From an uncultured Actinomycetes bacterium (lineage in GTDB: Bacteria > Actinomycetota > Coriobacteriia > Anaerosomatales > UBA912), in NCBI GenBank assembly GCA_947085795.1, contig CAMTXY010000220.1, positions 1 to 26,472 on the forward strand: a DNA stretch of 26,472 bases. Reading direction: 5' to 3'. The first letter of the stretch is position 1, and each line of letters opens with the position of its first letter. Made by a program: the position numbers and the translations under genes. Under the pieces are notes generated by a model, which had not been told where the DNA came from, did no database searches, and was given only the letters and a program-made list of their open reading frames with translations. Positions 14,935-25,607 of this stretch are shown in pieces.

Positions 14935-15895
14935 AATCCCTACCAGGTGGACCTGCGGCCTGCGCCGCACACCCTACGTCCTCGCCGGTCTCGCGTTGTG
15001 CAGCTTCGGAGTCGCGGCCGCCCCGCACGCGGTGTTCCTCATGGATCGCTCGTTTCTGCCAGGCTTGTTCGCCGCCGCGCTTGTGTTCTTGCTCTACGGC
15101 ATCGGCTTCAACATCTCGACCGTGTCTTACTTCGCGTTGGCCGCCGAAGTCTCCGGCGAGCAGGGTCGCGGCCGGACGATGGCGGTCATGTTCGCCATGA
15201 TGATCTCGGGCATCATCGTCACCGCGCTCTTTGTTGGTCAGCTCGTCGAACCCTATTCACCGGCGGCGGTCAACGTGGCGTTCGCGTACGTGGGTCTGGC
15301 TGCGTTCGTGCTCGGTACGCTCGCCATCCTCGGGCTCGAGCGGCGCGATACCGCACAGTCCGTGCCCGCCGAGGAACGGCACACGTGGCTCGTGCTCGCC
15401 CGCGCGATGGGGGAGAACCCGCAGGTGAGGCTGTTCTTCGTGTACCTCATCGTGCTACTCATCGCTCTGCTCGGCCAGGACATCCTGCTTGAGCCGTACG
15501 GCGGACAGGTCTTCGACCTGAGCGTGCGGCAGACCACGCGGATCTCGTCGCTGTGGGGTGTGTTCGTCTTGGTCTCGTTGCCTGTGGCCGCGCTGCTCGA
15601 GGGGTGCTTCTCGCGGCGCGCGCTTGCGGCGGCTGGCGGTTTGACGGCCCTGGCGGGTTTCGGCGGCATCATCGGCGGGGGGCTCGTCGGTTCGCTTTCG
15701 AGCGGCGCGGTGTATGACGTGGCGACTTCTGTCACCCAGAATCCGCTGGTAGGCTACGTCACGGCGTTCGGCATGCTCGCCGTGTGCATGATCGTCTCGC
15801 TCATGCTGCTGCGGCGCATCGACGTGACCGCGTTCCGTCGCCGGGCGGACGAGGAGCATTCGGTCCTCGAGCGGGCGGCGCTCGCCGGCGAGTGA
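14927..15895 (+). pseudogene. PucC-like BCD-family MFS transporter, N-terminally truncated and internally deleted
   Basis: Family-like motifs GLRRTPYVLAG, GQDILLEPYGGQVFDLSVRQTTR and LRRIDV. Similarity starts at about TM3, and only 8-9 TM segments are visible. Confidence 0.62.
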
Positions 15896-15935
15896 GGCGC
15901 GCGGGCGCTCCCCGTTCCCGCGCGTGCCGCTCGGG

Positions 15936-15941
15936 TACAAT
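15936..15941 (+). promoter_or_regulatory. Putative -10 element (TACAAT) for hom-thrB
   Basis: Near-consensus TACAAT about 60 nt upstream of the hom ATG. -35 is weak. Confidence 0.45.
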
Positions 15942-16000
15942 ACTCGCCATCCGGATCTCCTTGTCGTACGGGACCGGCGACCCCTATCGGAGGGTACCGC

Positions 16001-17287
16001 ATGCGCACCGTGAAAGTCGGCCTCATCGGCCTGGGAACCGTAGGCGCCGGAGTCGTGGAGATTTTCAACCGCCACCGGCAAGACTTCGTCCGCCGGGCCG
16101 GCGTCGACATCGAGCTGACCCGCTTCGCCGACCGCGAGGAGTCGCGCGCGGCCGAACTGGGCCTGCCCGCAGGCTCGTTCACCACTGATGCGTTCGACAT
16201 CATCAGCGATCCGGACGTCGACGTCGTCATCGAGCTCATCGGCGGTACCGGTGTCGCCCGCGAGATCGTGCTGGCGGCGCTCGCCGAAGGCAAGTCGGTC
16301 GTAACGGCCAACAAGGCGCTCATGGCCACGCATGGTCAGGAGGTGATGGATGCGGCGGCACGCCAGGGCGTCGACGTCATGTTCGAAGCCAGCGTCGGCG
16401 GCGGGATTCCGATCATCAGCCCGCTCAAGCACTGTCTCGTCTCCAACCAGATCGGGACGGTGATGGGCATCGTCAACGGCACGACCAACTACATGCTCAC
16501 CCGTATGGCCGCAGACGGCCTGGACTACGGCACCGCACTCGCCGAGGCACAGGAGCGCGGGTTCGCCGAGGCCGACCCGACCGCCGATGTCGACGGCCAC
16601 GACGCTGCGGCGAAGATCGCGATCCTCGCCAGCATCGCGTTCAATTCGCGCATCACGATCGACCAGGTGCCTGCCGAGGGCATCCGATCGCTCTCGCCAG
16701 CCGACATCGCGTACGCCCGCGAGATGGGCTACACCATCAAGCTGCTCGCCATCGCACGTCGCATCGATGGCGCGGTCGACATTCGCGTGCACCCCACGAT
16801 GATCCCGGTCGCCCACCCGCTTGCCGGCGTCAACGGCGTGTACAACGCGATCTACGTCATCGGCGACGCGGTCGGCGAGACGATGTTCTTCGGCGAGGGG
16901 GCCGGTTCGTTGCCGGCGGCCAGTGCGGTGGTCGGCGACGTGATCGAGGTGGCGCGCCACATCCGAAGCGGGTGCCTGAACCTGGTCGGCTGCACGTGCA
17001 ACGAGCAGCTGCCGGTCCGCGACATCGCCGACCTGACCTCGAGCTACTACGTGCGCCTGCGCGTCGCGGACAAGCCGGGCGTGCTCGCCGCGGTCGCCGG
17101 CGTGTTCGGCGCTCACGGCGTGTCGATCGGCTCGGTCATCCAGAAGACCGCCGATGAGACCGGTGCCGAGATCGTCTACGTCACCCATCGCGCCTCGGAG
17201 CGGGCGGTGCGCTTCGCGCTCGCCGAGATCGAGGCGCTCGACGTCGTGGCGACGCTCGGGACGGTCCTGCGCGTCGAGGATCTCTAG
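16001..17287 (+). CDS. hom: Homoserine dehydrogenase with C-terminal ACT domain
   Basis: GLIGLGTVG, VVTANKAL, FEASVGGGIPII, GIVNGTTNY, AEADPTADVDGHDAAAK, GAGSLPAASAV, ACT domain DKPGVLA. Confidence 0.96.
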   Translation: MRTVKVGLIGLGTVGAGVVEIFNRHRQDFVRRAGVDIELTRFADREESRAAELGLPAGSFTTDAFDIISDPDVDVVIELIGGTGVAREIVLAALAEGKSVVTANKALMATHGQEVMDAAARQGVDVMFEASVGGGIPIISPLKHCLVSNQIGTVMGIVNGTTNYMLTRMAADGLDYGTALAEAQERGFAEADPTADVDGHDAAAKIAILASIAFNSRITIDQVPAEGIRSLSPADIAYAREMGYTIKLLAIARRIDGAVDIRVHPTMIPVAHPLAGVNGVYNAIYVIGDAVGETMFFGEGAGSLPAASAVVGDVIEVARHIRSGCLNLVGCTCNEQLPVRDIADLTSSYYVRLRVADKPGVLAAVAGVFGAHGVSIGSVIQKTADETGAEIVYVTHRASERAVRFALAEIEALDVVATLGTVLRVEDL

Positions 17288-17292
17288 GGCGC

Positions 17293-18210
17293 ATGGCTGA
17301 CGTCACGATACGCGTGCCGGCGAGCGCGGCGAACCTCGGGCCGGGCTACGACGCCTTCGGGCTTGCGCTCGGGCTGTACAACACGTTTCGTGCTCAGCCC
17401 GCCGACACGTGGAGAGTGGAGGTGCGCGGCGAAGGGGAGGGACGTTTCGCCCGCGACGGTCGCAACCAGGTAGCCCGCGCGATGGCGCGTGCGTTCGCCG
17501 AGATCGACGGCGCGCATGCGGCTGCGCGCGTGGTTTGCGACAACGAGATCCCCACGAGTCGCGGGCTCGGTTCCTCGGCGGCGGCGATCGTGGGCGGCGT
17601 CGTGCTCGCCGACGCTCTGTGCGGCGGTGTCCTCGGCCGCGACCGGCTCTTCGGGATCGCGGCCGAGATGGAGGGTCATCCCGACAACGTGGCTGCGGCG
17701 CTCTTTGGCGGTTTCACCATCGGCTGGTCCGGCGAGGGCGCCCCCGGGGTCGCGGCTGTGTCGCCCGCAGACGGACTCGCCGCCGTTGTCGTCGTCGCGG
17801 ACGAATCTCTGCCGACCCGGACTTCGCGCGGTCTGCTGCCGAGGCAGGTGCCGCATGCCGACGCCGCGTTCAACGCCGGTCGCTCGGGTCTGCTCGCCGC
17901 AGGCATCGCGCTCGGCCGAGGAGACCTCATCGCCGCCGGACTGCATGACCGGCTCCACGAACCGTACCGCGTATCGGCTGTGCCGGACCTGGCCGAGGTA
18001 GCCCGGGCGCTCGTCGAGGCTGGAGCGCTCGGTGCTGTGCTCTCCGGTGCGGGGCCGACCGTGATCGGGCTCGTGAGCGCGGACGACGATGACGCGGCTT
18101 TCGAGGCGGCGACCCGGATCGCCGGCCGAGTCGGCGGACTCGACCCGGGGCGTCGGACCCCGCAGGCGCTGCGCATCGACCGGACGGGAGCCGCGGTCCT
18201 TACGGGCTGA
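17293..18210 (+). CDS. thrB: Homoserine kinase
   Basis: VPASAANLGPGYD, GHMP motif PTSRGLGSSAAA, EGHPDNVAAA, DRLHEPYR, SGAGPT. Confidence 0.95.
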   Translation: MADVTIRVPASAANLGPGYDAFGLALGLYNTFRAQPADTWRVEVRGEGEGRFARDGRNQVARAMARAFAEIDGAHAAARVVCDNEIPTSRGLGSSAAAIVGGVVLADALCGGVLGRDRLFGIAAEMEGHPDNVAAALFGGFTIGWSGEGAPGVAAVSPADGLAAVVVVADESLPTRTSRGLLPRQVPHADAAFNAGRSGLLAAGIALGRGDLIAAGLHDRLHEPYRVSAVPDLAEVARALVEAGALGAVLSGAGPTVIGLVSADDDDAAFEAATRIAGRVGGLDPGRRTPQALRIDRTGAAVLTG

Positions 18211-18320
18211 GTGCGCGAGCTGAGGGCGTGTATTGACCGCGCCCGCCTCCGTCGGGGAATATAGACTGTACCGCACCCGCCCGTCACCTCGTGCGACGGC
18301 CCTATCCGCGGAGGAACCCC

Positions 18321-19385
18321 ATGGATCAACCAGGCCCCGAGAGCCGTCCCGGCATCGAGCCGCCCGTCTCACAAGGATACGCCGTCCCGACGGCACCCCC
18401 CGCGACCGCACCTTCGTCCGTCGCGCCCCCCGCGAACGCGCCGGTGCAGCCCGCGCCGCGCACTTCCTCGGCGTGGAAATGGTTCATCGGCGTAGTGGCC
18501 GTGCTGCTCATCGGAGCGATGGCCTTCTGTGGCCTGGCCGTGCTCGCCGTCGCCCCGATCTCAGGGCCGTCGTTCTCGATCGACGAGAACATCGCGCTCA
18601 TCCACGTCGACGGCGTGATCGCCGGCACGGGAAGCGAGTTCGACGGCGTCATCACGCCCGAAGCGATAATCGACAAGCTCGGCAAGGCGCTCGCCGACCC
18701 GACTGTCAAGGCGATTCTGCTGCGCATCGATTCGCCGGGTGGGACGGTGGCCGCCTCGCAGGAGATCGCCACCGAGATCGCTCGTGCCGCCGAGGAGAAG
18801 CCGGTCGTCGCGAGCGTCGGCGATGTCGCGGCGAGCGGCGGATACATGATCGCCTCGCAGTGCGACGAGATCGTCGCGAACCCGACCTCGGCGGTCGGCA
18901 GCATCGGCGTCATCACCCAGATTCCCAACGTCGCCGGCCTGCTCGAGAAGCTCGGTATCGAGTTCACCGTGTTCACCGCAGGCGATCACAAAGACGCCGG
19001 CAGCCCGTTCCGTTCGATGACCGCGACCGAGACCGCGCTCATCCAGACCGAGGTCGACGTCGCCTACGATGAGTTCATCCGCATCGTCGCCGAGGGCCGC
19101 GACCTGCCTGAGGACAAAGTGCGCGAGATGGCGACGGGCTTCGCCTGGTCGGCGCTCGTGGCCAAGGAGATGGGGCTCGTCGACACGCTGGGCACCTACA
19201 ACGACGCGGTGGACCGCGCCGCCGAACTCGGCGGGATCGAGGGTGAACCGGGCATCGTGACCTACGACGAATACGACTACGGCACGTTCCTGCGCTTCTT
19301 ACTCGGCGCGTCGGCGCGCCTCGACCGGCTTGAGGTGCTCACCCGTACGCTGACGGGACCTGCCGCACCGGCGCTGCCGAGATAG
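18321..19385 (+). CDS. sppA: Signal peptide peptidase SppA (S49, short form)
   Basis: ATG at 18321 with GGAGGA RBS. Pro-rich N-terminus, TM segment, RIDSPGG, AASGGYMIA, GSIGVI, KDAGSPFR. Confidence 0.93.
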   Translation: MDQPGPESRPGIEPPVSQGYAVPTAPPATAPSSVAPPANAPVQPAPRTSSAWKWFIGVVAVLLIGAMAFCGLAVLAVAPISGPSFSIDENIALIHVDGVIAGTGSEFDGVITPEAIIDKLGKALADPTVKAILLRIDSPGGTVAASQEIATEIARAAEEKPVVASVGDVAASGGYMIASQCDEIVANPTSAVGSIGVITQIPNVAGLLEKLGIEFTVFTAGDHKDAGSPFRSMTATETALIQTEVDVAYDEFIRIVAEGRDLPEDKVREMATGFAWSALVAKEMGLVDTLGTYNDAVDRAAELGGIEGEPGIVTYDEYDYGTFLRFLLGASARLDRLEVLTRTLTGPAAPALPR

Positions 19386-19420
19386 ACACGCGAACACCGT
19401 CCGCGACCCACGGAGGATCT

Positions 19421-20257
19421 GTGACCACAGAGGCTCTCATCCGCATCGCACACATCTCCGACCTGCACTGCGGGTCGCAATACCACATCCCCTCGCTGGC
19501 CACTCGCGTCATCGACGAGCTCAACGAACTCAAGCCCGACATGGTGGTGGTGACCGGCGACCTGACCGACATGGGGTTCCGCCAGGAGTTCAAGCAGGCT
19601 CATCGGCTGCTCTCGCGCCTCCAGTGTCAGGAGCGCATGGTACTCCTCGGCAATCACGACGCGCGCAACGTCGGCGACGAGCATTTCAGCGAGATGTTCG
19701 GCACGCGCAGTAAGGTGCTGCTGCACGGGTGCGTGCGGATCCTCGGAATCGATTCGAGCGAACCGGACCTCGACGCCGGACGCGTGGGCCGTAACCGCTA
19801 CAAGTGGATCGAGGAGCGCTTCAGCGACCCTGACGAGTTCAAGGTGCTCGCGATGCACCACCACCTCGTGCCGGTGCCGGGCACCGGTCGCGAGCGCAAC
19901 GTCGTCTACGACGCAGGCGACATGCTGCGCGTGCTCTCGCATTGCGGTGCCGACCTCGTGTTGTGCGGCCACAAGCACGTCCCGAACGTCTGGCGTCTCG
20001 AGGATATGCTCATCGTCAACGCCGGCACCGCGTGCTCGCACCGCCTGCGCGGGCGCGTGCGGCCCTGCTACAACATCATCGAGGTCATCGGCGGTTCGCG
20101 CGTGCGCGTGCTGCTCAAGGAGCCATACGTCGATCCCGAGGTCGTCGCCGACTACCACGAGCTCCACAAGCGCTACTGCAGCTGGCGTCCGAAGAGCGAG
20201 CCGGCCGACGCCGAGATCGTGCCCACTCCTGAATCTGCCGAGGAGACCGCCTCATGA
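19421..20257 (+). CDS. Calcineurin-like metallophosphoesterase (CpdA/Icc-like)
   Basis: All five metal-binding motifs: HISDLH, TGDLT, GNHD, MHHH, GHKH. Confidence 0.92.
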   Translation: MTTEALIRIAHISDLHCGSQYHIPSLATRVIDELNELKPDMVVVTGDLTDMGFRQEFKQAHRLLSRLQCQERMVLLGNHDARNVGDEHFSEMFGTRSKVLLHGCVRILGIDSSEPDLDAGRVGRNRYKWIEERFSDPDEFKVLAMHHHLVPVPGTGRERNVVYDAGDMLRVLSHCGADLVLCGHKHVPNVWRLEDMLIVNAGTACSHRLRGRVRPCYNIIEVIGGSRVRVLLKEPYVDPEVVADYHELHKRYCSWRPKSEPADAEIVPTPESAEETAS

Positions 20258-21600
20258 CCCGTATCGTCGCGCTCATCGACGGGGAGCACTACCCGCCTGT
20301 CGTCCGCTTCGCGCTCGAGAGTCTCGCGCGCGAACACGAAGTGGCCGCCGCGGCGTTCATCGGCGGGACCGAGAAGGTCGACCTCGAGAGGGGGATGGAC
20401 ACCTACGGCGTACCGGTCGTCACCGCCGCCACGCCCGAAGACGCGGTCCGTGAGGTGATAGTCCGCTATGAGCCTGTCACCGTGATCGACCTCTCCGACG
20501 AGCCGGTAGTCTCGAGCGCCGACCGTTTCCGGCTCGCCGGTATCGCGCTGTCATGCGGCGTGGAGTACCGCGGCGCCGACTTCACGTTCACGCCGCCGCG
20601 CGCGCAGCTGGCCACCAGCACGCCGACGCTCGGACTCATCGGTACCGGCAAGCGAGTGGGCAAGACCGCCGTTTCAGGCTACGTCGCGCGCGAGCTGACC
20701 GCTGCTGGGCGTGATATCTGCGTTCTGGCGATGGGCCGAGGCGGCCCCTCCGAACCAGAGATAATCCACGGAGAGAAGGTCAGGCTGACCACGCCCGACC
20801 TGCTCGAACTCGCCCGTCAGGGAAAGCATGCGAGCAGCGACAACTACGAGGACGCGGTCATGAGTCGCGTGACCACCGTGGGCTGTCGGCGCTGCGGCGG
20901 AGGCATGGCGGGCGAGACGTTCTTCTCCAACGTCCCGGAGGGCGCGCGCCTCGCCGACACGCTCGGCAAGGAGCTCATCGTGCTCGAGGGTTCCGGGGCC
21001 GCGATCCCGCCCGTGCACGCCGACGCGAGCATCCTCGTGGTGGGTGCCGGTCGCGGTCTGGACTACGTGCGCGGGTATTTCGGGCCTTATCGCCTCGGTC
21101 TGGCCGATCTCATCGTGATCGCCACTGCCGAGGAACCCGTCGCATCGCCTGACGACATCGCCTCCATCCGCAAGGCCGTGGCCGAACTGGCGCCCGGCGT
21201 GCCGTGTCTGGCCACGACGTTCCGCCCGTGCCCGGTCGAACCGGTGGAAGGGGCCAAGGTGTTCTTCGCCACCACCGCGCCCGCACAGGTGCTGCCCAAG
21301 CTAGTCGAGCACCTCGAACGCGACCACGGGTGCGAGGTGGTGGGTTCGAGCGCGAACCTGTCGAACCGCGCCAAGCTGCGCGAGGACATGCGCGCGGCGC
21401 AGGGCCGTTACGACCTGCTGCTCACCGAGCTCAAGGCGGCCGCGATCGACGTCGTGGCGGCGGCTGGCGAGGAGAGCGGCGTCCCGACGGTTCTCTGTGA
21501 CAACGTGCCCGTGCCGCTCGACGACAGTGCCGACCTGTCTTCGGCGGTGCTGGCGGCGGCGCATATCGCGCTCGAGCGCGGGTCGGCGAGAGGGGTGTGA
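20254..21600 (+). CDS. cpgS: Cyclic 2,3-diphosphoglycerate synthetase
   Basis: ALIDGEHYPPVV, P-loop GTGKRVGKTAVS, AMGRGGPSEPE, SDNYEDA, GCRRCGGGMAG, LEGSGAAIPP, LLTELKAAAIDVV. Directly upstream of a 2-phosphoglycerate kinase. Confidence 0.9.
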   Translation: MTRIVALIDGEHYPPVVRFALESLAREHEVAAAAFIGGTEKVDLERGMDTYGVPVVTAATPEDAVREVIVRYEPVTVIDLSDEPVVSSADRFRLAGIALSCGVEYRGADFTFTPPRAQLATSTPTLGLIGTGKRVGKTAVSGYVARELTAAGRDICVLAMGRGGPSEPEIIHGEKVRLTTPDLLELARQGKHASSDNYEDAVMSRVTTVGCRRCGGGMAGETFFSNVPEGARLADTLGKELIVLEGSGAAIPPVHADASILVVGAGRGLDYVRGYFGPYRLGLADLIVIATAEEPVASPDDIASIRKAVAELAPGVPCLATTFRPCPVEPVEGAKVFFATTAPAQVLPKLVEHLERDHGCEVVGSSANLSNRAKLREDMRAAQGRYDLLLTELKAAAIDVVAAAGEESGVPTVLCDNVPVPLDDSADLSSAVLAAAHIALERGSARGV

Positions 21601-21604
21601 TCCG

Positions 21605-22528
21605 GTGAAGCCGCACCCCAAGACGATCATCCTGTCCGACAAGCGTCACGGTCTGCCGTTCTCCAAGGGGCTACTCGCCCAGTCGTTCATGGCCACGGGC
21701 CTCGGTCCGGGGCGTGCGTACGAGATCGCCCAGGCGATCCAGGACGATCTGCGAGACAACGACGAGCTGTCGATCACGATCAAGCGGCTGAGGATGCTTG
21801 CGCAGGAGTACCTCGAGCGGATGGCTGGCGAGCAGTACGCGGTACGCTATCTGCGACTTCACGAGGTCTCGAAACTCGACAAGCCGCTCATCGTAATGCT
21901 CGGCGGTACGACCGGCGTGGGCAAGTCGACCATCGCAACGGAGGTGGCCCACCGTCTCGGAATCACGCGCATCGTGTCGACGGATTCCATTAGGGAGGTC
22001 ATGCGTGGTATCTTCACAAGAGACCTCATGCCCGCGATCCACGAGAGCGCGTTCAACGCATGGCAGGGTCTGCGAGTCCCGGTGCCGCACGGCACCGACC
22101 CCGTGATCGTCGGTTTCCGCGAGCAGACCGCCGTGGTGACGACCGGAGTGCAAGCGCTGATCGACCGCTCGGTGCTCGAGGGGGACAGCCTCGTTCTGGA
22201 AGGCATCCACCTCGTGCCCGGATACATCGAGCCGCAGCACTTCAAGAACGCGCGGGTCGCGCAACTTGTCATCGCCGTGGAAGACGAAGACGCTCATCGC
22301 AGCCACTTCTACATCCGAGAGGTCCAGACCGACGGGATGCGCCCGTTCGAGCGCTACCGCACGAACTTCGGCAACATCCGCTTACTCGGTCATTACATAG
22401 AGGATCTGGCCCGCGAACACGGGACCCCCGTGCTCGTGAGTCACCAGCTCGACCTGACCGTGTCCGACGTGCTCGAACGTATCGTGAATTCGGCCATCGA
22501 AGACGAGTGCGACGCGCACCGTGAGTAG
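21605..22528 (+). CDS. pgk2: 2-phosphoglycerate kinase with N-terminal ATP-cone
   Basis: GTG at 21605. ATP-cone PFSKGLLAQSFMATG, P-loop LGGTTGVGKSTIATEVAHRLGI, STDSIREVMR, IHESAF, LEGIHLVPG. Confidence 0.9.
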   Translation: MKPHPKTIILSDKRHGLPFSKGLLAQSFMATGLGPGRAYEIAQAIQDDLRDNDELSITIKRLRMLAQEYLERMAGEQYAVRYLRLHEVSKLDKPLIVMLGGTTGVGKSTIATEVAHRLGITRIVSTDSIREVMRGIFTRDLMPAIHESAFNAWQGLRVPVPHGTDPVIVGFREQTAVVTTGVQALIDRSVLEGDSLVLEGIHLVPGYIEPQHFKNARVAQLVIAVEDEDAHRSHFYIREVQTDGMRPFERYRTNFGNIRLLGHYIEDLAREHGTPVLVSHQLDLTVSDVLERIVNSAIEDECDAHRE

Positions 22529-22561
22529 GGTGCGCACCGGCTACAAAGGAGGTAGCGATCT

Positions 22562-23224
22562 GTGAAGTTCTTCTTAGACACCGCCAATCTCGACGAGATT
22601 CGCGAAGCCGCGAGTTGGGGCGTGCTCTCGGGCGTGACCACCAACCCGACGCTCTATGCCCGCGAAGGCGGTAGACTCGCCGACTTCCACGACCACATCG
22701 TGCGGATCTGCGAGATCGCCGGCGGCCCCGTCTCGGCCGAGACCGTCTCGCTGTCGCGCGACGAGATCGTCGCCGAGGGCATGGAGCTCGCGGCACTGCA
22801 TCCCGACGTCGTCGTCAAGGTGCCGACCATGCCCGAGGGCCTGGCTGCGACCCGCGCTCTTGCCGAGAAGGGTGTCAAGGTCAACATGACGTTGTGTTTC
22901 ACGGTGCCGCAGGCGCTGCTCGCCGCGCGTTCGGGTGCCGCGTATGTCTCGCCGTTCATCGGTCGGTTCGACGACATCTCCGAGGACGGTTCGGAGCATC
23001 TCGCGAACGTGGTGCACGCGTTGAACAACTACGATTTCGGTCACACGGTCGAAGTGATCGCGGCATCGGTGCGCCATCCCGGGCACGTGCTTCAGGCCGC
23101 TCTCATCGGCGCCGATATCGCAACTGTGCCGATGGCCACGCTTGAGAAGTGCATCAAGCACCCCCTCACTGACCGGGGTCTCGAATCGTTCCTCGCCGAC
23201 TGGGAGAAGGTCGAGAACTCATGA
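22562..23224 (+). CDS. tal: Transaldolase (TalC/FSA family)
   Basis: MKFFLDTAN, GVTTNPTL, VKVP, VNMTLCF. Glu in VSAETVS and Phe in SPFIGR fit transaldolase rather than FSA. Confidence 0.9.
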   Translation: MKFFLDTANLDEIREAASWGVLSGVTTNPTLYAREGGRLADFHDHIVRICEIAGGPVSAETVSLSRDEIVAEGMELAALHPDVVVKVPTMPEGLAATRALAEKGVKVNMTLCFTVPQALLAARSGAAYVSPFIGRFDDISEDGSEHLANVVHALNNYDFGHTVEVIAASVRHPGHVLQAALIGADIATVPMATLEKCIKHPLTDRGLESFLADWEKVENS

Positions 23225-24573
23225 GCGCCAGACCCCGTAAACGCGGCCGTCGCGGTAGTAGCGGACAGCCGCAGGAGCCAAGACCCTCCGTCACCAGACC
23301 CGAACTCGAAGCTAAGACGGTAGCCGAGCTCAAGGTCATAGCTACCGAGCTGTCGCTCGACATCAAAGTGTTGAAGAAGAAGGACGAGCTCATCGACGCT
23401 GTGCTTGAGGCCAAGGTCAAGTCCGAGGGTTTCATCGAGATCAGCGGCATCCTCGATATCCTACCCGAAGGCTACGGCTTCATCCGCACGAGCGGATACC
23501 TGCCTGGCGACCGGGACGTGTACTGCTCGATGTCGCAGATCCGCAAGTTCGACCTGCGCCGCGGCGACATGCTCATCGGCCAGGTCCGCCCGCCCAAGGA
23601 CAACGAGAAGTACTCGGCGCTCCAGCGCGTCGATTCGGTCAACAGCGTGCCGACCGAACAGGCGCGCGGCCGCAAGCGCTTCGGCGATCTCACACCGGTC
23701 TACCCTGACGAACGCCTGCGTCTGGAGCATGGAGCCGAGACCATCACGGCCCGCGTCATGGATCTCGTCGCGCCAATCGGCAAGGGCCAGCGCGGACTGA
23801 TCGTCTCGCCGCCCAGAGCCGGCAAGACCACCGTGCTCAAGGACATCGCCGCGTCGATCACGGCGAACAGCCCCGAGGTCTACCTCATGTGCCTGCTCGT
23901 GGACGAGCGGCCTGAGGAAGTCACCGATATGGAGCGCTCGATTCATGGAGAGGTCGTCTCCTCGACGTTGGACATGCCCAGCGAGAACCACATCGCCGTG
24001 GCCGAGCTGGTGATGGAACGCGCCAAGCGTCTCGTGGAGTCCGGCTTCGACGTCTTGATCCTGCTCGACTCGATCACTCGTCTCGCGCGCGCGTACAACC
24101 TCGCCACACCGGCGTCGGGCCGCATCCTGTCCGGCGGTGTCGACTCGACCGCGCTCTACCCGCCCAAGAAGTTCTTCGGCGCGGCGCGCAACATCGAGAA
24201 CGGCGGCTCGCTCACCATTCTGGCGACTGCGCTTGTCGACACCGGCTCGAAGATGGACGAGGTCATCTTCGAGGAGTTCAAGGGTACCGGCAACATGGAG
24301 CTGCGCCTCGACCGTTCGATGGCCGACCGCCGCATCTTCCCGGCGATCGACGTTATCACGTCGGGCACGCGCAAAGAGGAACTGCTGCTCGAGCCGGTCG
24401 AGGCGCCGTTCGTGTGGGGTCTGCGCCGCATCCTGCACGGTGTGGACTCGGCCGAGCGCGCCATGGACATGCTCATCAAGGGCCTCAGGCAGACGAAAAG
24501 CAACCAGGAGTTCCTCTCCAAGATGGCCAAACGCGCCGATGAGAAGCGCCACACCAACGGCATCGACCTGTGA
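23221..24573 (+). CDS. rho: Transcription termination factor Rho
   Basis: GILDILPEGYGFIR, APIGKGQRGLIVSPPRAGKT, LVDERPEEVTD, LDSITRLARAYN, FEEFKGTGNME. ATGA overlap with tal. Confidence 0.98.
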   Translation: MSARPRKRGRRGSSGQPQEPRPSVTRPELEAKTVAELKVIATELSLDIKVLKKKDELIDAVLEAKVKSEGFIEISGILDILPEGYGFIRTSGYLPGDRDVYCSMSQIRKFDLRRGDMLIGQVRPPKDNEKYSALQRVDSVNSVPTEQARGRKRFGDLTPVYPDERLRLEHGAETITARVMDLVAPIGKGQRGLIVSPPRAGKTTVLKDIAASITANSPEVYLMCLLVDERPEEVTDMERSIHGEVVSSTLDMPSENHIAVAELVMERAKRLVESGFDVLILLDSITRLARAYNLATPASGRILSGGVDSTALYPPKKFFGAARNIENGGSLTILATALVDTGSKMDEVIFEEFKGTGNMELRLDRSMADRRIFPAIDVITSGTRKEELLLEPVEAPFVWGLRRILHGVDSAERAMDMLIKGLRQTKSNQEFLSKMAKRADEKRHTNGIDL

Positions 24574-24692
24574 AGTCCGCAGGTCGAATCGGACAGGTCG
24601 GATCGGGGCGGCTGTAGCTCTACGTATCGTCGCCAGCCTCGCGTACACTGATACGCTACACAAGGTGGAACGGTCGGGAAGGGGTGCGGGAG

Positions 24693-25607
24693 ATGGCGCT
24701 GCCCACAGTGGGCAAGATCTGGATGGACGGCGAGTTCGTCGACTGGGACATGGCCCAGGTCCACGTCCTGACGCACGCGCTTCACTACGGCTCCGGCGTC
24801 TTCGAGGGCATCCGCTGCTACAAGACCCCTGACGGACCTGCCGTCTTCCGGCTGACCGAGCATATGGAGCGCCTGAAGCGCAGCGCGTCGATGCTGCTCA
24901 TGGACCTCGGCTACACCGTGGAAGAGACGGTTGCAGCGGTCAAGGAGACCATCCGCGTCAACGGACTCAACTCCTGTTACGTCCGGCCGCTTGTGTTCCG
25001 CGGTTACGGCGTCATGGGCCTCGACCCGCTGCCCGCTCCCGTCAACGTGGTCATCGCGGCGTGGCCGTGGGACACCTATCTTGGCGAAGACGCCCTCAAG
25101 CATGGCGTCGCCGTCGGTGTCTCGAGCTGGCGCCAGCGCGGCATCAACGCAACCCCGCCGGCGATCAAGGCGACCGGCCAGTACATCAACTCCTCACTCG
25201 CGCGCATGGAGGCCAACAAGCATGGTTACGCCGAAGCCGTCCTCCTCAACGAGGAAGGCAAGGTCTGCGAAGGCACCGGCGAGAACCTGTTCATAGTCAA
25301 GAAGGGCGTCATCCACACCCCGCCGGTCTCTGACGGCATCCTTGAGGGCATCACTCGCGACAGTATCATGACGCTCGCCGACGACAAGGGCTATCGGGTC
25401 CGCGAGACCTCGCTCGTGCGCACCGATCTGTACACCGCCGACGAGATGTTCATGACGGGTTCGGCCGCCGAGGTCGTCCCCGTTCACTCGGTCGACGGCC
25501 GCGAGATCGGCGATCCCGGTCCGATCACGCTAGATCTGCAGGAGACGTTCTTCCGCGTCGTCGAGGGTGGCGAGCCGGCCTACGCCGCGTGGCTCGAGCA
25601 CGTGTAG
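24693..25607 (+). CDS. ilvE: Branched-chain amino acid aminotransferase
   Basis: LHYGSGVFEGIRCY, YVRPLVFRG, KATGQYINS, EGTGENLF, LEGITRDS, DEMFMTGSAAEV. Confidence 0.96.
   Translation: MALPTVGKIWMDGEFVDWDMAQVHVLTHALHYGSGVFEGIRCYKTPDGPAVFRLTEHMERLKRSASMLLMDLGYTVEETVAAVKETIRVNGLNSCYVRPLVFRGYGVMGLDPLPAPVNVVIAAWPWDTYLGEDALKHGVAVGVSSWRQRGINATPPAIKATGQYINSSLARMEANKHGYAEAVLLNEEGKVCEGTGENLFIVKKGVIHTPPVSDGILEGITRDSIMTLADDKGYRVRETSLVRTDLYTADEMFMTGSAAEVVPVHSVDGREIGDPGPITLDLQETFFRVVEGGEPAYAAWLEHV

What the first reader, a model, noticed from the sequence alone, without database searches (positions are those of the whole stretch)
19421..20257. Candidate cDPG hydrolase: phosphodiesterase coupled to cpgS
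Seen: an intact binuclear metallophosphoesterase whose stop overlaps the cpgS start (ATGA at 20254-20257). Known: CpdA-like enzymes open cyclic phosphoesters. cDPG-hydrolysing activity has been described in methanogens, but to my knowledge its gene is unassigned. Inference: this protein hydrolyses cDPG to 2,3-DPG (or dephosphorylates 2,3-DPG), completing a synthesis-and-turnover module.
Basis: partly seen in the sequence, partly recalled or inferred. Interest (0 to 1): 0.82.

Follow-up and report, generated by a model that had tools for sequence, protein, structure and literature searches.

The report
Phosphoesterase coupled to bacterial cDPG genes

Summary
Window 19421-20257 (+) is an intact calcineurin-type metallophosphoesterase (MPE) with all metal-binding motifs. 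Its TGA overlaps the ATG of a genuine cpgS (E 2e-129 to the Methanothermus fervidus enzyme). cpgS in turn overlaps pgk2 (2-phosphoglycerate kinase).

- **Linkage.** MPE-cpgS-pgk2 lies between sppA and fsa inside an old hom-thrB...rho block. Seven same-order genomes without cpgS lack exactly these three genes and keep both flanks.
- **Phyletic pattern.** In 201 class genomes, 81 have the cpgS-linked MPE clade with cpgS, 5 have cpgS only, and none has that clade without cpgS.
- **Coupling.** The 4-nt stop/start overlap is the commonest junction, in 49 of 80 partly redundant loci from five actinomycetotal classes.

Limits:
- The link is essentially one inherited actinomycetotal event.
- Archaeal cpgS is never adjacent to an MPE in 21 loci with room upstream.
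- A roughly 50%-identical paralogue with nearly the same conserved residues occurs in cpgS-less genomes.
- No close characterised relative exists, and no assay has been done.

The cDPG ring is a pyrophosphate anhydride, so MPE pyrophosphatases are a better precedent than CpdA.

My odds: tied to the cDPG pathway about 0.8; cDPG hydrolase specifically about 0.45. The scan had already noted this operon in at least 22 other genomes.

The parts
19412..19416 (+). Shine-Dalgarno-like GGAGG, 4 nt before the GTG start of the MPE gene
   Evidence: Read directly from the sequence.
19421..20257 (+). Metallophosphoesterase gene (278 aa, 31.5 kDa, soluble), a member of the cpgS-linked clade A. Residues 1-250 form the catalytic domain; residues 250-278 are a low-confidence acidic tail.
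   Evidence: Pfam Metallophos E 7.7e-20. All metal-ligand motifs present. AF2 model has mean pLDDT 92.1. No hydrophobic segment: maximum Kyte-Doolittle 19-residue value 0.92. Placed in clade A of the tree with SH-aLRT 98.
20254..20257 (+). ATGA overlap: the MPE stop codon overlaps the cpgS start codon (translational coupling)
   Evidence: Read from the sequence. The same 4-nt overlap is the commonest junction, in 49 of 80 partly redundant MPE-cpgS loci.
20254..21600 (+). cpgS, cyclic 2,3-diphosphoglycerate synthetase (448 aa)
   Evidence: E 2e-129 to M. fervidus cDPGS chains 8ORU/8ORK over residues 3-440. P-loop GTGKRVGKT is conserved.
21596..22528 (+). pgk2, 2-phosphoglycerate kinase. Start revised from the ORF-list GTG 21497 to GTG 21596, which overlaps the cpgS stop as GTGA (GTG 21605 is the alternative).
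   Evidence: NCBIfam NF008994 E 5.3e-97 and NF003259 E 8.5e-90, both below their equivalog cut-offs. Homology to relatives begins at ORF residue 33-44. Junction read from the sequence.
18291..19385 (+). sppA (signal peptide peptidase), the upstream boundary of the cassette and not part of it
   Evidence: TIGR00706 E 8.7e-68. Retained next to fsa in seven same-order genomes that lack the cassette.
22562..23224 (+). fsa (fructose-6-phosphate aldolase family), the downstream boundary of the cassette
   Evidence: TIGR00875 E 4.9e-76, above its cut-off. Retained next to sppA where the cassette is missing.

Best explanation
The gene encodes a soluble, binuclear-metal phosphoesterase that is the first, accessory gene of a bacterial cDPG cassette (MPE-cpgS-pgk2) and is co-translated with the synthetase.

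Shown here:
- The active site is intact.
- The gene is translationally coupled to cpgS.
- The three genes are gained or lost together.
- This clade has not been found without cpgS in the class sample.

Inferred: its substrate is a metabolite of the pathway. Most likely it hydrolyses the P-O-P anhydride of cDPG to give 2,3-DPG, using a metal-bridged hydroxide as in other MPE pyrophosphatases. Pgk2 and CpgS build cDPG from 2-phosphoglycerate with two ATP, and the MPE returns it to 2,3-DPG. This would give a synthesis/breakdown cycle whose net direction is set after translation, for example by K+ and phosphate, which inhibit the archaeal hydrolase activity. The cell could then release stored carbon, phosphate or osmotic load quickly.

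My odds are about 0.8 that it acts in cDPG metabolism at all and about 0.45 that it is a cDPG hydrolase specifically. The confidence given here is for the specific claim.
For: 1. The catalytic machinery is intact and under strong constraint. All MPE motifs are present. Orthologues are as conserved as cpgS itself, for example 86% against 81% identity in G002 and 67% against 57% in G010.

2. Cassette behaviour. In 34 same-order loci the order is sppA/thrB-MPE-cpgS-pgk2-fsa-rho. Seven same-order genomes without cpgS, from three families, keep sppA-fsa-rho; six of them also show hom upstream, and five of those show thrB too (the seventh contig ends after sppA). All seven lack exactly MPE, cpgS and pgk2.

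3. Asymmetric phyletic pattern in 201 class genomes. There are 81 with clade A plus cpgS, 5 with cpgS only (one of these at a contig end), 0 with clade A only, and 115 with neither.

4. Adjacency persists over deep divergence (cpgS 45-52% identical) in Coriobacteriia, Aquicultoria, Rubrobacteria, Acidimicrobiia and 'Actinomycetes'-labelled MAGs. It also holds where pgk2 is not adjacent (Rubrobacteraceae L108, L118) and in a different context with glpX (L161, L172).

5. The 4-nt stop/start overlap is the modal junction: 49 of 80 loci, median -4.

6. All cpgS-adjacent MPEs fall in one clade (SH-aLRT 98). Of nine further representatives of that clade, seven were next to cpgS.

7. Chemistry, from established knowledge: the MPE superfamily includes pyrophosphate-bond hydrolases (LpxH/LpxG, ApaH, ADPRibase-Mn). 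The last of these appears among the structural neighbours (rank 20).

8. A cDPG-to-2,3-DPG hydrolase activity exists in Methanothermobacter (Sastry 1992; van Alebeek 1994, as cited in PMC1224877). I found no gene assigned to it. Homologues 40-49% identical are present in 138 of 151 Methanobacteriota genomes.
Against: - No assay, docking or ligand-bound relative exists. The nearest characterised enzymes are about 20% identical.
- The whole hom...rho block is equally syntenic, so adjacency within Actinomycetota is largely a single inherited event.
- cpgS works without the MPE in several lineages: G016, G035, G024, G028, L047, L048, L081, L084 and all archaea sampled.
- The paralogous clade B shares nearly all conserved residues (R96, D116, HHH, GRERN, W191). 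It occurs in the cpgS-less genomes G023 and G026, beside pdtaS/pdtaR, so the active-site design is not cDPG-specific.
- In Methanobacteriota the homologue and cpgS are never adjacent and co-occur only loosely: both 132, MPE only 6, cpgS only 8, neither 5.
- The archaeal hydrolase is described as membrane-bound (PMC1224877), whereas this protein has no hydrophobic segment.
- Co-translating a synthetase with its antagonist is unusual and would need post-translational control.
Confidence: 0.45

Rival explanations
1. It is a 2,3-diphosphoglycerate phosphatase. The MPE would remove one phosphate from 2,3-DPG, the Pgk2 product and CpgS substrate, returning 2-PG or 3-PG to glycolysis/gluconeogenesis. 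It would act as an overflow or exit valve of the pathway rather than opening the ring.
For: The linkage evidence is the same as for the best explanation. Many MPEs are phosphomonoesterases; purple acid phosphatases are among the structural neighbours. Conserved arginines (R96, R157, R159) would suit a highly anionic substrate. The neighbours fsa and glpX tie the cassette to sugar-phosphate metabolism.
Against: In Rubrobacteraceae the MPE stays coupled to cpgS while pgk2 is not adjacent (L108, L118), and the conserved overlap is with cpgS. This points to the CpgS product more than to its substrate. A 2,3-DPG phosphatase placed ahead of CpgS would drain the synthetase's substrate. No sequence feature tells the two reactions apart.
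Confidence: 0.2
2. It is a general phosphodiesterase (cyclic nucleotide, 2',3'-cNMP, glycerophosphodiester or nucleotide-signal turnover). It would sit beside cpgS only because an ancestor of Actinomycetota had that gene order, with no role in cDPG metabolism.
For: The best sequence and fold matches are class III PDEs and GpdQ. The hom-thrB-sppA...fsa-rho neighbours are conserved just as well without sharing a function. Clade B, with nearly the same conserved residues, is independent of cpgS and lies beside a pdtaS/pdtaR two-component system. Archaea do not link the genes.
Against: The cassette is excised precisely as MPE+cpgS+pgk2 in three families while both flanks stay. Clade A was never found without cpgS in 201 genomes. 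The 4-nt overlap with cpgS is kept across five classes. The trio recurs in a second genomic context with glpX. All matches to named PDE equivalogs are far below cut-off, for example CpdA at 38.9 bits against 225.
Confidence: 0.15
3. It has another pathway-linked role. It might be a metabolite-repair or proofreading hydrolase for a side-product of Pgk2/CpgS, or a biosynthetic step giving a different end product in bacteria, so that bacterial 'cDPG' cassettes would make something other than cDPG.
For: cDPG itself has not been reported from any bacterium. The literature describes it as exclusive to hyperthermophilic methanogens (PMC10690619 abstract). In other compatible-solute pathways a dedicated phosphatase completes biosynthesis (established knowledge: mannosylglycerate, glucosylglycerate). 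Being first in the operon and co-translated fits a biosynthetic partner better than an antagonist.
Against: The MPE is dispensable in several cpgS+pgk2 lineages, so it is not an obligatory biosynthetic step. CpgS is about 50% identical to the archaeal enzyme with its motifs kept. No candidate alternative product is known.
Confidence: 0.1

Closest known systems
cDPG hydrolase activity of Methanothermobacter thermautotrophicus (Sastry et al. 1992, Biochemistry 31:2926; van Alebeek et al. 1994, Arch Microbiol 161:514; both as summarised in PMC1224877)
   Same: This is the reaction proposed here, cDPG to 2,3-DPG, in an organism with cpgS. The gene is unassigned as far as I could find. Methanobacteriota genomes carry 40-49% identical homologues of this MPE.
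   Different: The activity is described as membrane-bound and inhibited by K+ and phosphate. The window protein is soluble. In archaea the homologue is not adjacent to cpgS. No sequence exists for the archaeal enzyme, so homology cannot be tested.
Class III cyclic-nucleotide phosphodiesterases and GpdQ (Rv0805, PDB 3IB7/2HY1; CpdA; GpdQ, PDB 2ZO9/3D03)
   Same: Same fold and the same binuclear-metal motifs. These are the best PDB and Swiss-Prot structural matches, with TM about 0.64-0.75.
   Different: Only 17-22% identical. NCBIfam CpdA scores 38.9 bits against a 225-bit cut-off, and SpdA 39.9 against 400. This subfamily has its own conserved R96, D116, HHH, G-R-E-R-N and W191 set. The proposed substrate is a cyclic pyrophosphate, not a phosphodiester.
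MPE-superfamily pyrophosphatases (LpxH/LpxG, ApaH, Mn-dependent ADP-ribose/CDP-alcohol diphosphatase)
   Same: Same superfamily and the same chemistry as proposed: hydrolysis of a P-O-P anhydride at a dimetal centre. ADPRibase-Mn is a structural neighbour (rank 20), and LpxG gives a weak NCBIfam hit.
   Different: Homology is remote (13% identity to ADPRibase-Mn), and their substrates are nucleotide-linked.
Archaeal cDPG biosynthesis (2-phosphoglycerate kinase plus cDPG synthetase of Methanothermus fervidus; PDB 8ORK/8ORU, PMC10690619)
   Same: The two downstream genes are clear homologues.
   Different: In the archaeal loci sampled, cpgS stands alone, with neither pgk2 nor an MPE within 8 kb. 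The bacterial version is a tight three-gene operon.

Membership tests
Calcineurin-like metallophosphoesterase superfamily (Pfam PF00149) | Score above the Pfam gathering threshold over the full domain | tested here: met
   72.6 bits against 21.5, covering profile positions 1-191 of 191.
Calcineurin-like metallophosphoesterase superfamily (Pfam PF00149) | Five metal-ligand motifs: DxH, GD, GNH(D/E), H, GHxH | tested here: met
   D14/H16, D47, N78-H79-D80, H146-148 and H184/H186 are all present. They are at least 94% conserved in clade A.
Calcineurin-like metallophosphoesterase superfamily (Pfam PF00149) | Alpha/beta sandwich MPE fold | tested here: met
   AF2 model has mean pLDDT 92.1. Foldseek probability is 1.00 to Rv0805, GpdQ and purple acid phosphatases.
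3',5'-cAMP phosphodiesterase CpdA / class III PDE (NCBIfam NF008359) | Score at or above the curated equivalog cut-off | tested here: not met
   38.9 bits against a 225-bit cut-off. Identity to CpdA/Rv0805 models is 17-20%.
Glycerophosphodiesterase GpdQ | Close sequence relationship to characterised GpdQ | tested here: not met
   E 4e-10 and about 21% identity to PDB 2ZO9/3D03. This is superfamily-level similarity only.
Bacterial cDPG cassette (MPE-cpgS-pgk2) | Immediately upstream of, and translationally coupled to, a bona fide cpgS that is followed by pgk2 | tested here: met
   ATGA overlap at 20254-20257. cpgS matches 8ORU at E 2e-129. pgk2 matches the 2PGK models at E about 1e-90 to 1e-97.
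Bacterial cDPG cassette (MPE-cpgS-pgk2) | Orthology with the cpgS-linked MPE clade rather than with the unlinked paralogue | tested here: met
   The window protein lies inside clade A (SH-aLRT 98). Clade A holds all 28 other cpgS-adjacent MPEs placed in the tree. Clade B forms a separate group.
cDPG hydrolase (biochemical activity of M. thermautotrophicus) | Hydrolyses cDPG to 2,3-DPG | not testable with these tools
   This needs an enzyme assay. No ligand docking or solved relative is available.
cDPG hydrolase (biochemical activity of M. thermautotrophicus) | Membrane-bound (as summarised in PMC1224877) | tested here: not met
   No hydrophobic segment (maximum Kyte-Doolittle 19-residue value 0.92, GRAVY -0.34). 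The model is globular. Peripheral association cannot be excluded.
cDPG hydrolase (biochemical activity of M. thermautotrophicus) | A homologue is present in cDPG-making methanogens | tested here: inconclusive
   Homologues 40-49% identical occur in 138 of 151 Methanobacteriota genomes, against 140 of 151 for cpgS. Co-occurrence is loose and the genes are never adjacent.

The most novel reading that the evidence does not exclude
Clade-A MPEs, and perhaps their homologues in methanogens, are the cDPG hydrolase that has lacked a gene since 1992. On this reading, many mesophilic, anaerobic, deep-branching Actinomycetota make and actively cycle cDPG, a solute that the literature confines to hyperthermophilic methanogens. 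Synthetase and hydrolase would be co-translated as a built-in substrate cycle, comparable in logic to PFK-2/FBPase-2, that lets the cell switch a phosphate/carbon/osmotic store on and off.
Probability: 0.4. Interest if true: 0.75.

Novelty: new variant of a known kind. Interest (0 to 1): 0.6.

Why it matters
cDPG is studied as an extremolyte with commercial interest, and its synthesis genes are known. Its breakdown enzyme has been an orphan activity since the early 1990s. A specific, easily expressed 31-kDa candidate makes that question directly testable, now that cDPG can be made enzymatically in one step (PMC12136491). If the candidate is right, two things follow. First, cDPG metabolism exists in widespread subsurface and sediment Actinomycetota, and also in mesophilic Methanobacteriales, where cpgS was found in 140 of 151 genomes sampled. 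That would overturn the 'hyperthermophile-only' view. Second, it would add a cyclic-pyrophosphate hydrolase to the MPE repertoire. If the candidate is wrong, the finding still marks a well-defined, uncharacterised MPE subfamily tied to a specific pathway.

Tried and rejected
- **Predicted MPE-CpgS complex.** The job returned no verdict (score 0.00) and is not evidence either way.
- **Apparent MPE-cpgS fusion proteins.** Eight cluster representatives look like fusions (P0134, P0172, P0184, P0199, P0203, P0209, P0242, P0243). I rejected them as Rosetta-stone evidence. Their cpgS parts are patchy or truncated, and an equally odd sppA-MPE 'fusion' (P0142) appears. They are most likely frameshift or gene-calling artefacts, and I use them only as evidence of adjacency.
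- **Promoter and terminator scan of 15500-24800.** Nothing useful: 2 weak promoter-like sites against 0.8 expected, and 0 terminators.
- **Expression.** Six DNA runs from two studies hold the stretch. No RNA run does, so co-transcription could not be checked.
- **Archaeal adjacency.** None in 21 Methanobacteria/Methanopyri cpgS loci with room upstream. In whole genomes the nearest homologue lies 25-50 kb from cpgS. Archaea outside Methanobacteriota were not sampled.
- **Solved structures and Swiss-Prot models.** No relative above about 22% identity, so the substrate cannot be inferred.
- **ESM Atlas.** Only generic 'metallophosphoesterase' clusters.
- **PADLOC-type reading.** The best NCBIfam hit is an 'anti-phage phosphoesterase' at 65.7 bits against a 420-bit cut-off. 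I rejected it as superfamily noise.
- **Model coordinates.** They were not available to scripts, so pocket geometry and electrostatics could not be computed.
- **Original papers.** Sastry 1992 and Matussek 1998 are not held. The properties of the archaeal hydrolase are therefore taken from the review PMC1224877 only.

Full report
**What is there.**
The window is a contig of an 80%-complete MAG of 1.48 Mb. Close protein matches are labelled Coriobacteriia or Actinomycetota.

On the + strand the genes run in this order:

| Gene | Coordinates |
|---|---|
| hom | 16001-17287 |
| thrB | 17293-18210 |
| sppA | 18291-19385 |
| MPE (the finding) | 19421-20257 |
| cpgS | 20254-21600 |
| pgk2 | 21596-22528 |
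| fsa | 22562-23224 |
| rho | 23221-24573 |
| ilvE | 24684-25607 |
| cimA-like gene | 25638 to the window end |

The MPE ORF begins at GTG 19421, four bases after a GGAGG. It encodes 278 residues with every canonical metallophosphoesterase motif: D14-x-H16, G46-D47, GNHD 77-80, HHH 146-148 and GHKH 183-186. Its TGA overlaps the ATG of the next gene (ATGA, 20254-20257). That gene matches the solved cDPG synthetase of Methanothermus fervidus at E 2e-129 over nearly its full length. It is followed by a 2-phosphoglycerate kinase homologue (E about 1e-90 to 1e-97). The likely GTG start of pgk2 at 21596 overlaps the cpgS stop.

**How the MPE relates to cpgS in relatives.**
In 34 loci from the same order the arrangement is hom-thrB-(sppA)-MPE-cpgS-pgk2-fsa-rho. 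The whole block is syntenic, so adjacency alone says little: hom, thrB, sppA, fsa and rho are just as constant.

The informative cases are the exceptions.
- Seven same-order genomes without cpgS come from three families: G019 and G037; G130, G140, G159 and G180; and G134. All keep sppA-fsa-rho and lack exactly MPE, cpgS and pgk2. Six of them also show hom upstream, and five of those show thrB as well; the G037 contig ends after sppA.
- Four genomes in three families (G016, G035, G024, G028), and two more loci (L047, L048), lack only the MPE. In these, sppA abuts cpgS with 24-89 bp between them.
- The reverse case, clade-A MPE kept with cpgS lost, was not seen.

A sample of 201 genomes of the class gives these counts:

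| Clade-A MPE | cpgS | Genomes |
|---|---|---|
| present | present | 81 |
| absent | present | 5 (one of these at a contig end) |
| present | absent | 0 |
| absent | absent | 115 |

The three genes therefore behave as a cassette in which the MPE is the dispensable member and depends on the other two.

**Beyond the order.**
A scan of one genome per species found more than 583 cpgS relatives, and I examined the best 80. All actinomycetotal classes represented keep MPE directly upstream of cpgS: Coriobacteriia, Ca. Aquicultoria, Rubrobacteria, Acidimicrobiia and 'Actinomycetes'-labelled MAGs. This holds even at 45-52% cpgS identity. It also holds in Rubrobacteraceae, where pgk2 is not adjacent.

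The stop/start overlap of 4 nt is the commonest junction, in 49 of 80 loci with a median of -4. About eleven of these loci are duplicates between my two sets.

By contrast, none of the 21 archaeal cpgS loci with room upstream (Methanobacteria, Methanopyri) has an MPE or pgk2 within 8 kb. The one Anaerolineae locus also has neither.

**Family structure.**
An exhaustive HMMER search found only 184 clusters at E no greater than 1e-30, so this is a compact subfamily. A tree of 152 sequences puts all 29 cpgS-adjacent MPEs in one clade, here called clade A (SH-aLRT 98).

I looked up nine further representatives of that clade.
- Seven lie next to cpgS. One of these is separated from cpgS by a SnoaL-like gene. 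Two sit in a different context, MPE-cpgS-pgk2-glpX.
- Two short contigs (P0168, P0223) show no cpgS immediately downstream.

The sister clade B is about 50% identical, with alignment ending near residue 222. In three Coriobacteriia loci annotated it lies beside a pdtaS/pdtaR two-component system and a CCG/Fe-S protein, and it occurs in the cpgS-less genomes G023 and G026.

Homologues of 40-49% identity are nearly universal in Methanobacteriota, in 138 of 151 genomes with 1-3 copies each. cpgS is found in 140 of 151. Co-occurrence is only loose: both 132, MPE only 6, cpgS only 8, neither 5. The genes lie 25-50 kb apart.

**What the sequence and model say about function.**
The AF2 model is confident (mean pLDDT 92.1) apart from the acidic tail at 250-278. 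Its nearest solved or reviewed neighbours are Rv0805, GpdQ and CpdA at 17-22% identity, followed by purple acid phosphatases and ADPRibase-Mn. All named NCBIfam equivalogs are far below cut-off.

The subfamily has its own conserved set beyond the metal ligands: R96, D111-S112, D116, G156-R-E-R-N160, D164, W191, T203 and N218. Clades A, B and the archaeal group share this set. Only about nine positions are A-specific. At six of these (E114, P151, E194, N200, A201, L209) the commonest residue in the methanogen homologues is the same as in clade A, and clade B differs. The arginine-rich loops suit a small polyanionic substrate, but they do not single out cDPG.

The protein is soluble: 31.5 kDa, with a maximum Kyte-Doolittle 19-residue value of 0.92.

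**Interpretation.**
cDPG is a cyclic pyrophosphate, and its ring opening is hydrolysis of an anhydride (PMC12136491). The right precedents within the MPE superfamily are therefore pyrophosphatases (LpxH/LpxG, ApaH, ADPRibase-Mn; established knowledge) and not CpdA.

A cDPG-to-2,3-DPG hydrolase activity was described in Methanothermobacter: Sastry 1992, and van Alebeek 1994, who found it membrane-bound and inhibited by K+ and phosphate. Both are known to me through PMC1224877. I found no paper that assigns a gene to it or that mentions cDPG together with a metallophosphoesterase or with Coriobacteriia.

The supporting evidence is the cassette behaviour, the one-sided dependence on cpgS, the conserved translational coupling, and the tighter link to cpgS than to pgk2. 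On that basis my odds are:

| Reading | Odds |
|---|---|
| Acts in cDPG metabolism at all | about 0.8 |
| cDPG hydrolase | about 0.45 |
| 2,3-DPG phosphatase | about 0.2 |
| Other pathway-linked role | about 0.1 |
| Unrelated phosphodiesterase carried along by synteny | about 0.15 |

**Main weaknesses.**
- The link is essentially one evolutionary event in Actinomycetota.
- Archaea do not link the genes.
- Clade B shows that the same active-site design exists without cpgS.
- The archaeal enzyme was membrane-bound.
- There is no biochemical evidence.

**Status.**
The scan's notebook holds 23 earlier notes of this operon in at least 22 other genomes, including Gaiellaceae and a Coriobacteriia-type MAG, and they reach the same candidate assignment. 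This window is one more instance.

The new elements here are:
- the precise three-gene deletion footprints;
- the zero count of clade A without cpgS;
- the A/B paralogue split with its residue comparison;
- the junction statistics;
- the negative result for adjacency in Methanobacteriota.

Noticed in passing
G024:C13, G028:C12, G016:C1, G035:C5 (loci L143, L145, L148, L149); also G023 and G026: A paralogous MPE (clade B, about 50% identical) lies beside a pdtaS-like histidine kinase, a pdtaR-like ANTAR response regulator and a CCG/Fer4 protein in the three loci annotated (L143, L145, L148). All four genomes that have cpgS but lost the clade-A MPE carry clade B, against 10 of 32 genomes that keep clade A. 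This may be compensation, but only three families are involved. Clade B also occurs in genomes without cpgS.
   Followed up: partly
Representative proteins P0128-P0133, P0135, P0136, P0138, P0141 and others: There is a sizeable group of proteins of about 500 aa made of two tandem MPE domains of this subfamily (30-43% and 24-34% identical to the query). In the tree they cluster near the archaeal homologues. Their function and taxonomy are unknown.
   Followed up: no
Methanobacteriota genome sample G217-G363: cpgS was found in 140 of 151 genomes of the phylum sample, and cpgS loci from the scan carry Methanobrevibacter and Methanobacterium labels. This sits badly with the statement that cDPG is exclusive to hyperthermophilic methanogens (PMC10690619 abstract).
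   Followed up: partly
window 16001-24573 and loci L011-L124: The cDPG cassette, with sppA and fsa, sits inside the hom-thrB...rho arrangement. That arrangement is conserved across Coriobacteriia and Aquicultoria, and more loosely in other deep Actinomycetota. In other lineages (L161, L172) the cassette is instead followed by glpX (class II fructose-1,6-bisphosphatase). Both contexts are sugar-phosphate metabolism.
   Followed up: partly
L056, L057, L076 ('uncultured Eubacteriales'), L100 ('uncultured Reyranella sp.'): These MAGs are labelled Bacillota or Alphaproteobacteria at NCBI. They nevertheless carry the Coriobacteriia-type hom...rho block at 63-71% cpgS identity, so the labels look wrong or the bins are contaminated.
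   Followed up: no
window 21497-21600: The mechanical ORF for pgk2 starts at GTG 21497, 104 nt inside cpgS. Homology begins only at ORF residue 33-44, and GTG 21596 overlaps the cpgS stop (GTGA). The gene start should be placed there, or at GTG 21605.
   Followed up: yes
PDB 9SXB chain A: A third solved cDPG synthetase chain (436 aa, E 5e-113 to the window CpgS) is in the PDB besides 8ORK and 8ORU. I did not determine its source organism.
   Followed up: no
G014:C2:89939-93088: In this 51%-complete three-contig genome, MPE, cpgS and pgk2 all appear split into several frames with internal stops. This is either a decaying cassette or a long-read assembly with frameshift errors.
   Followed up: no
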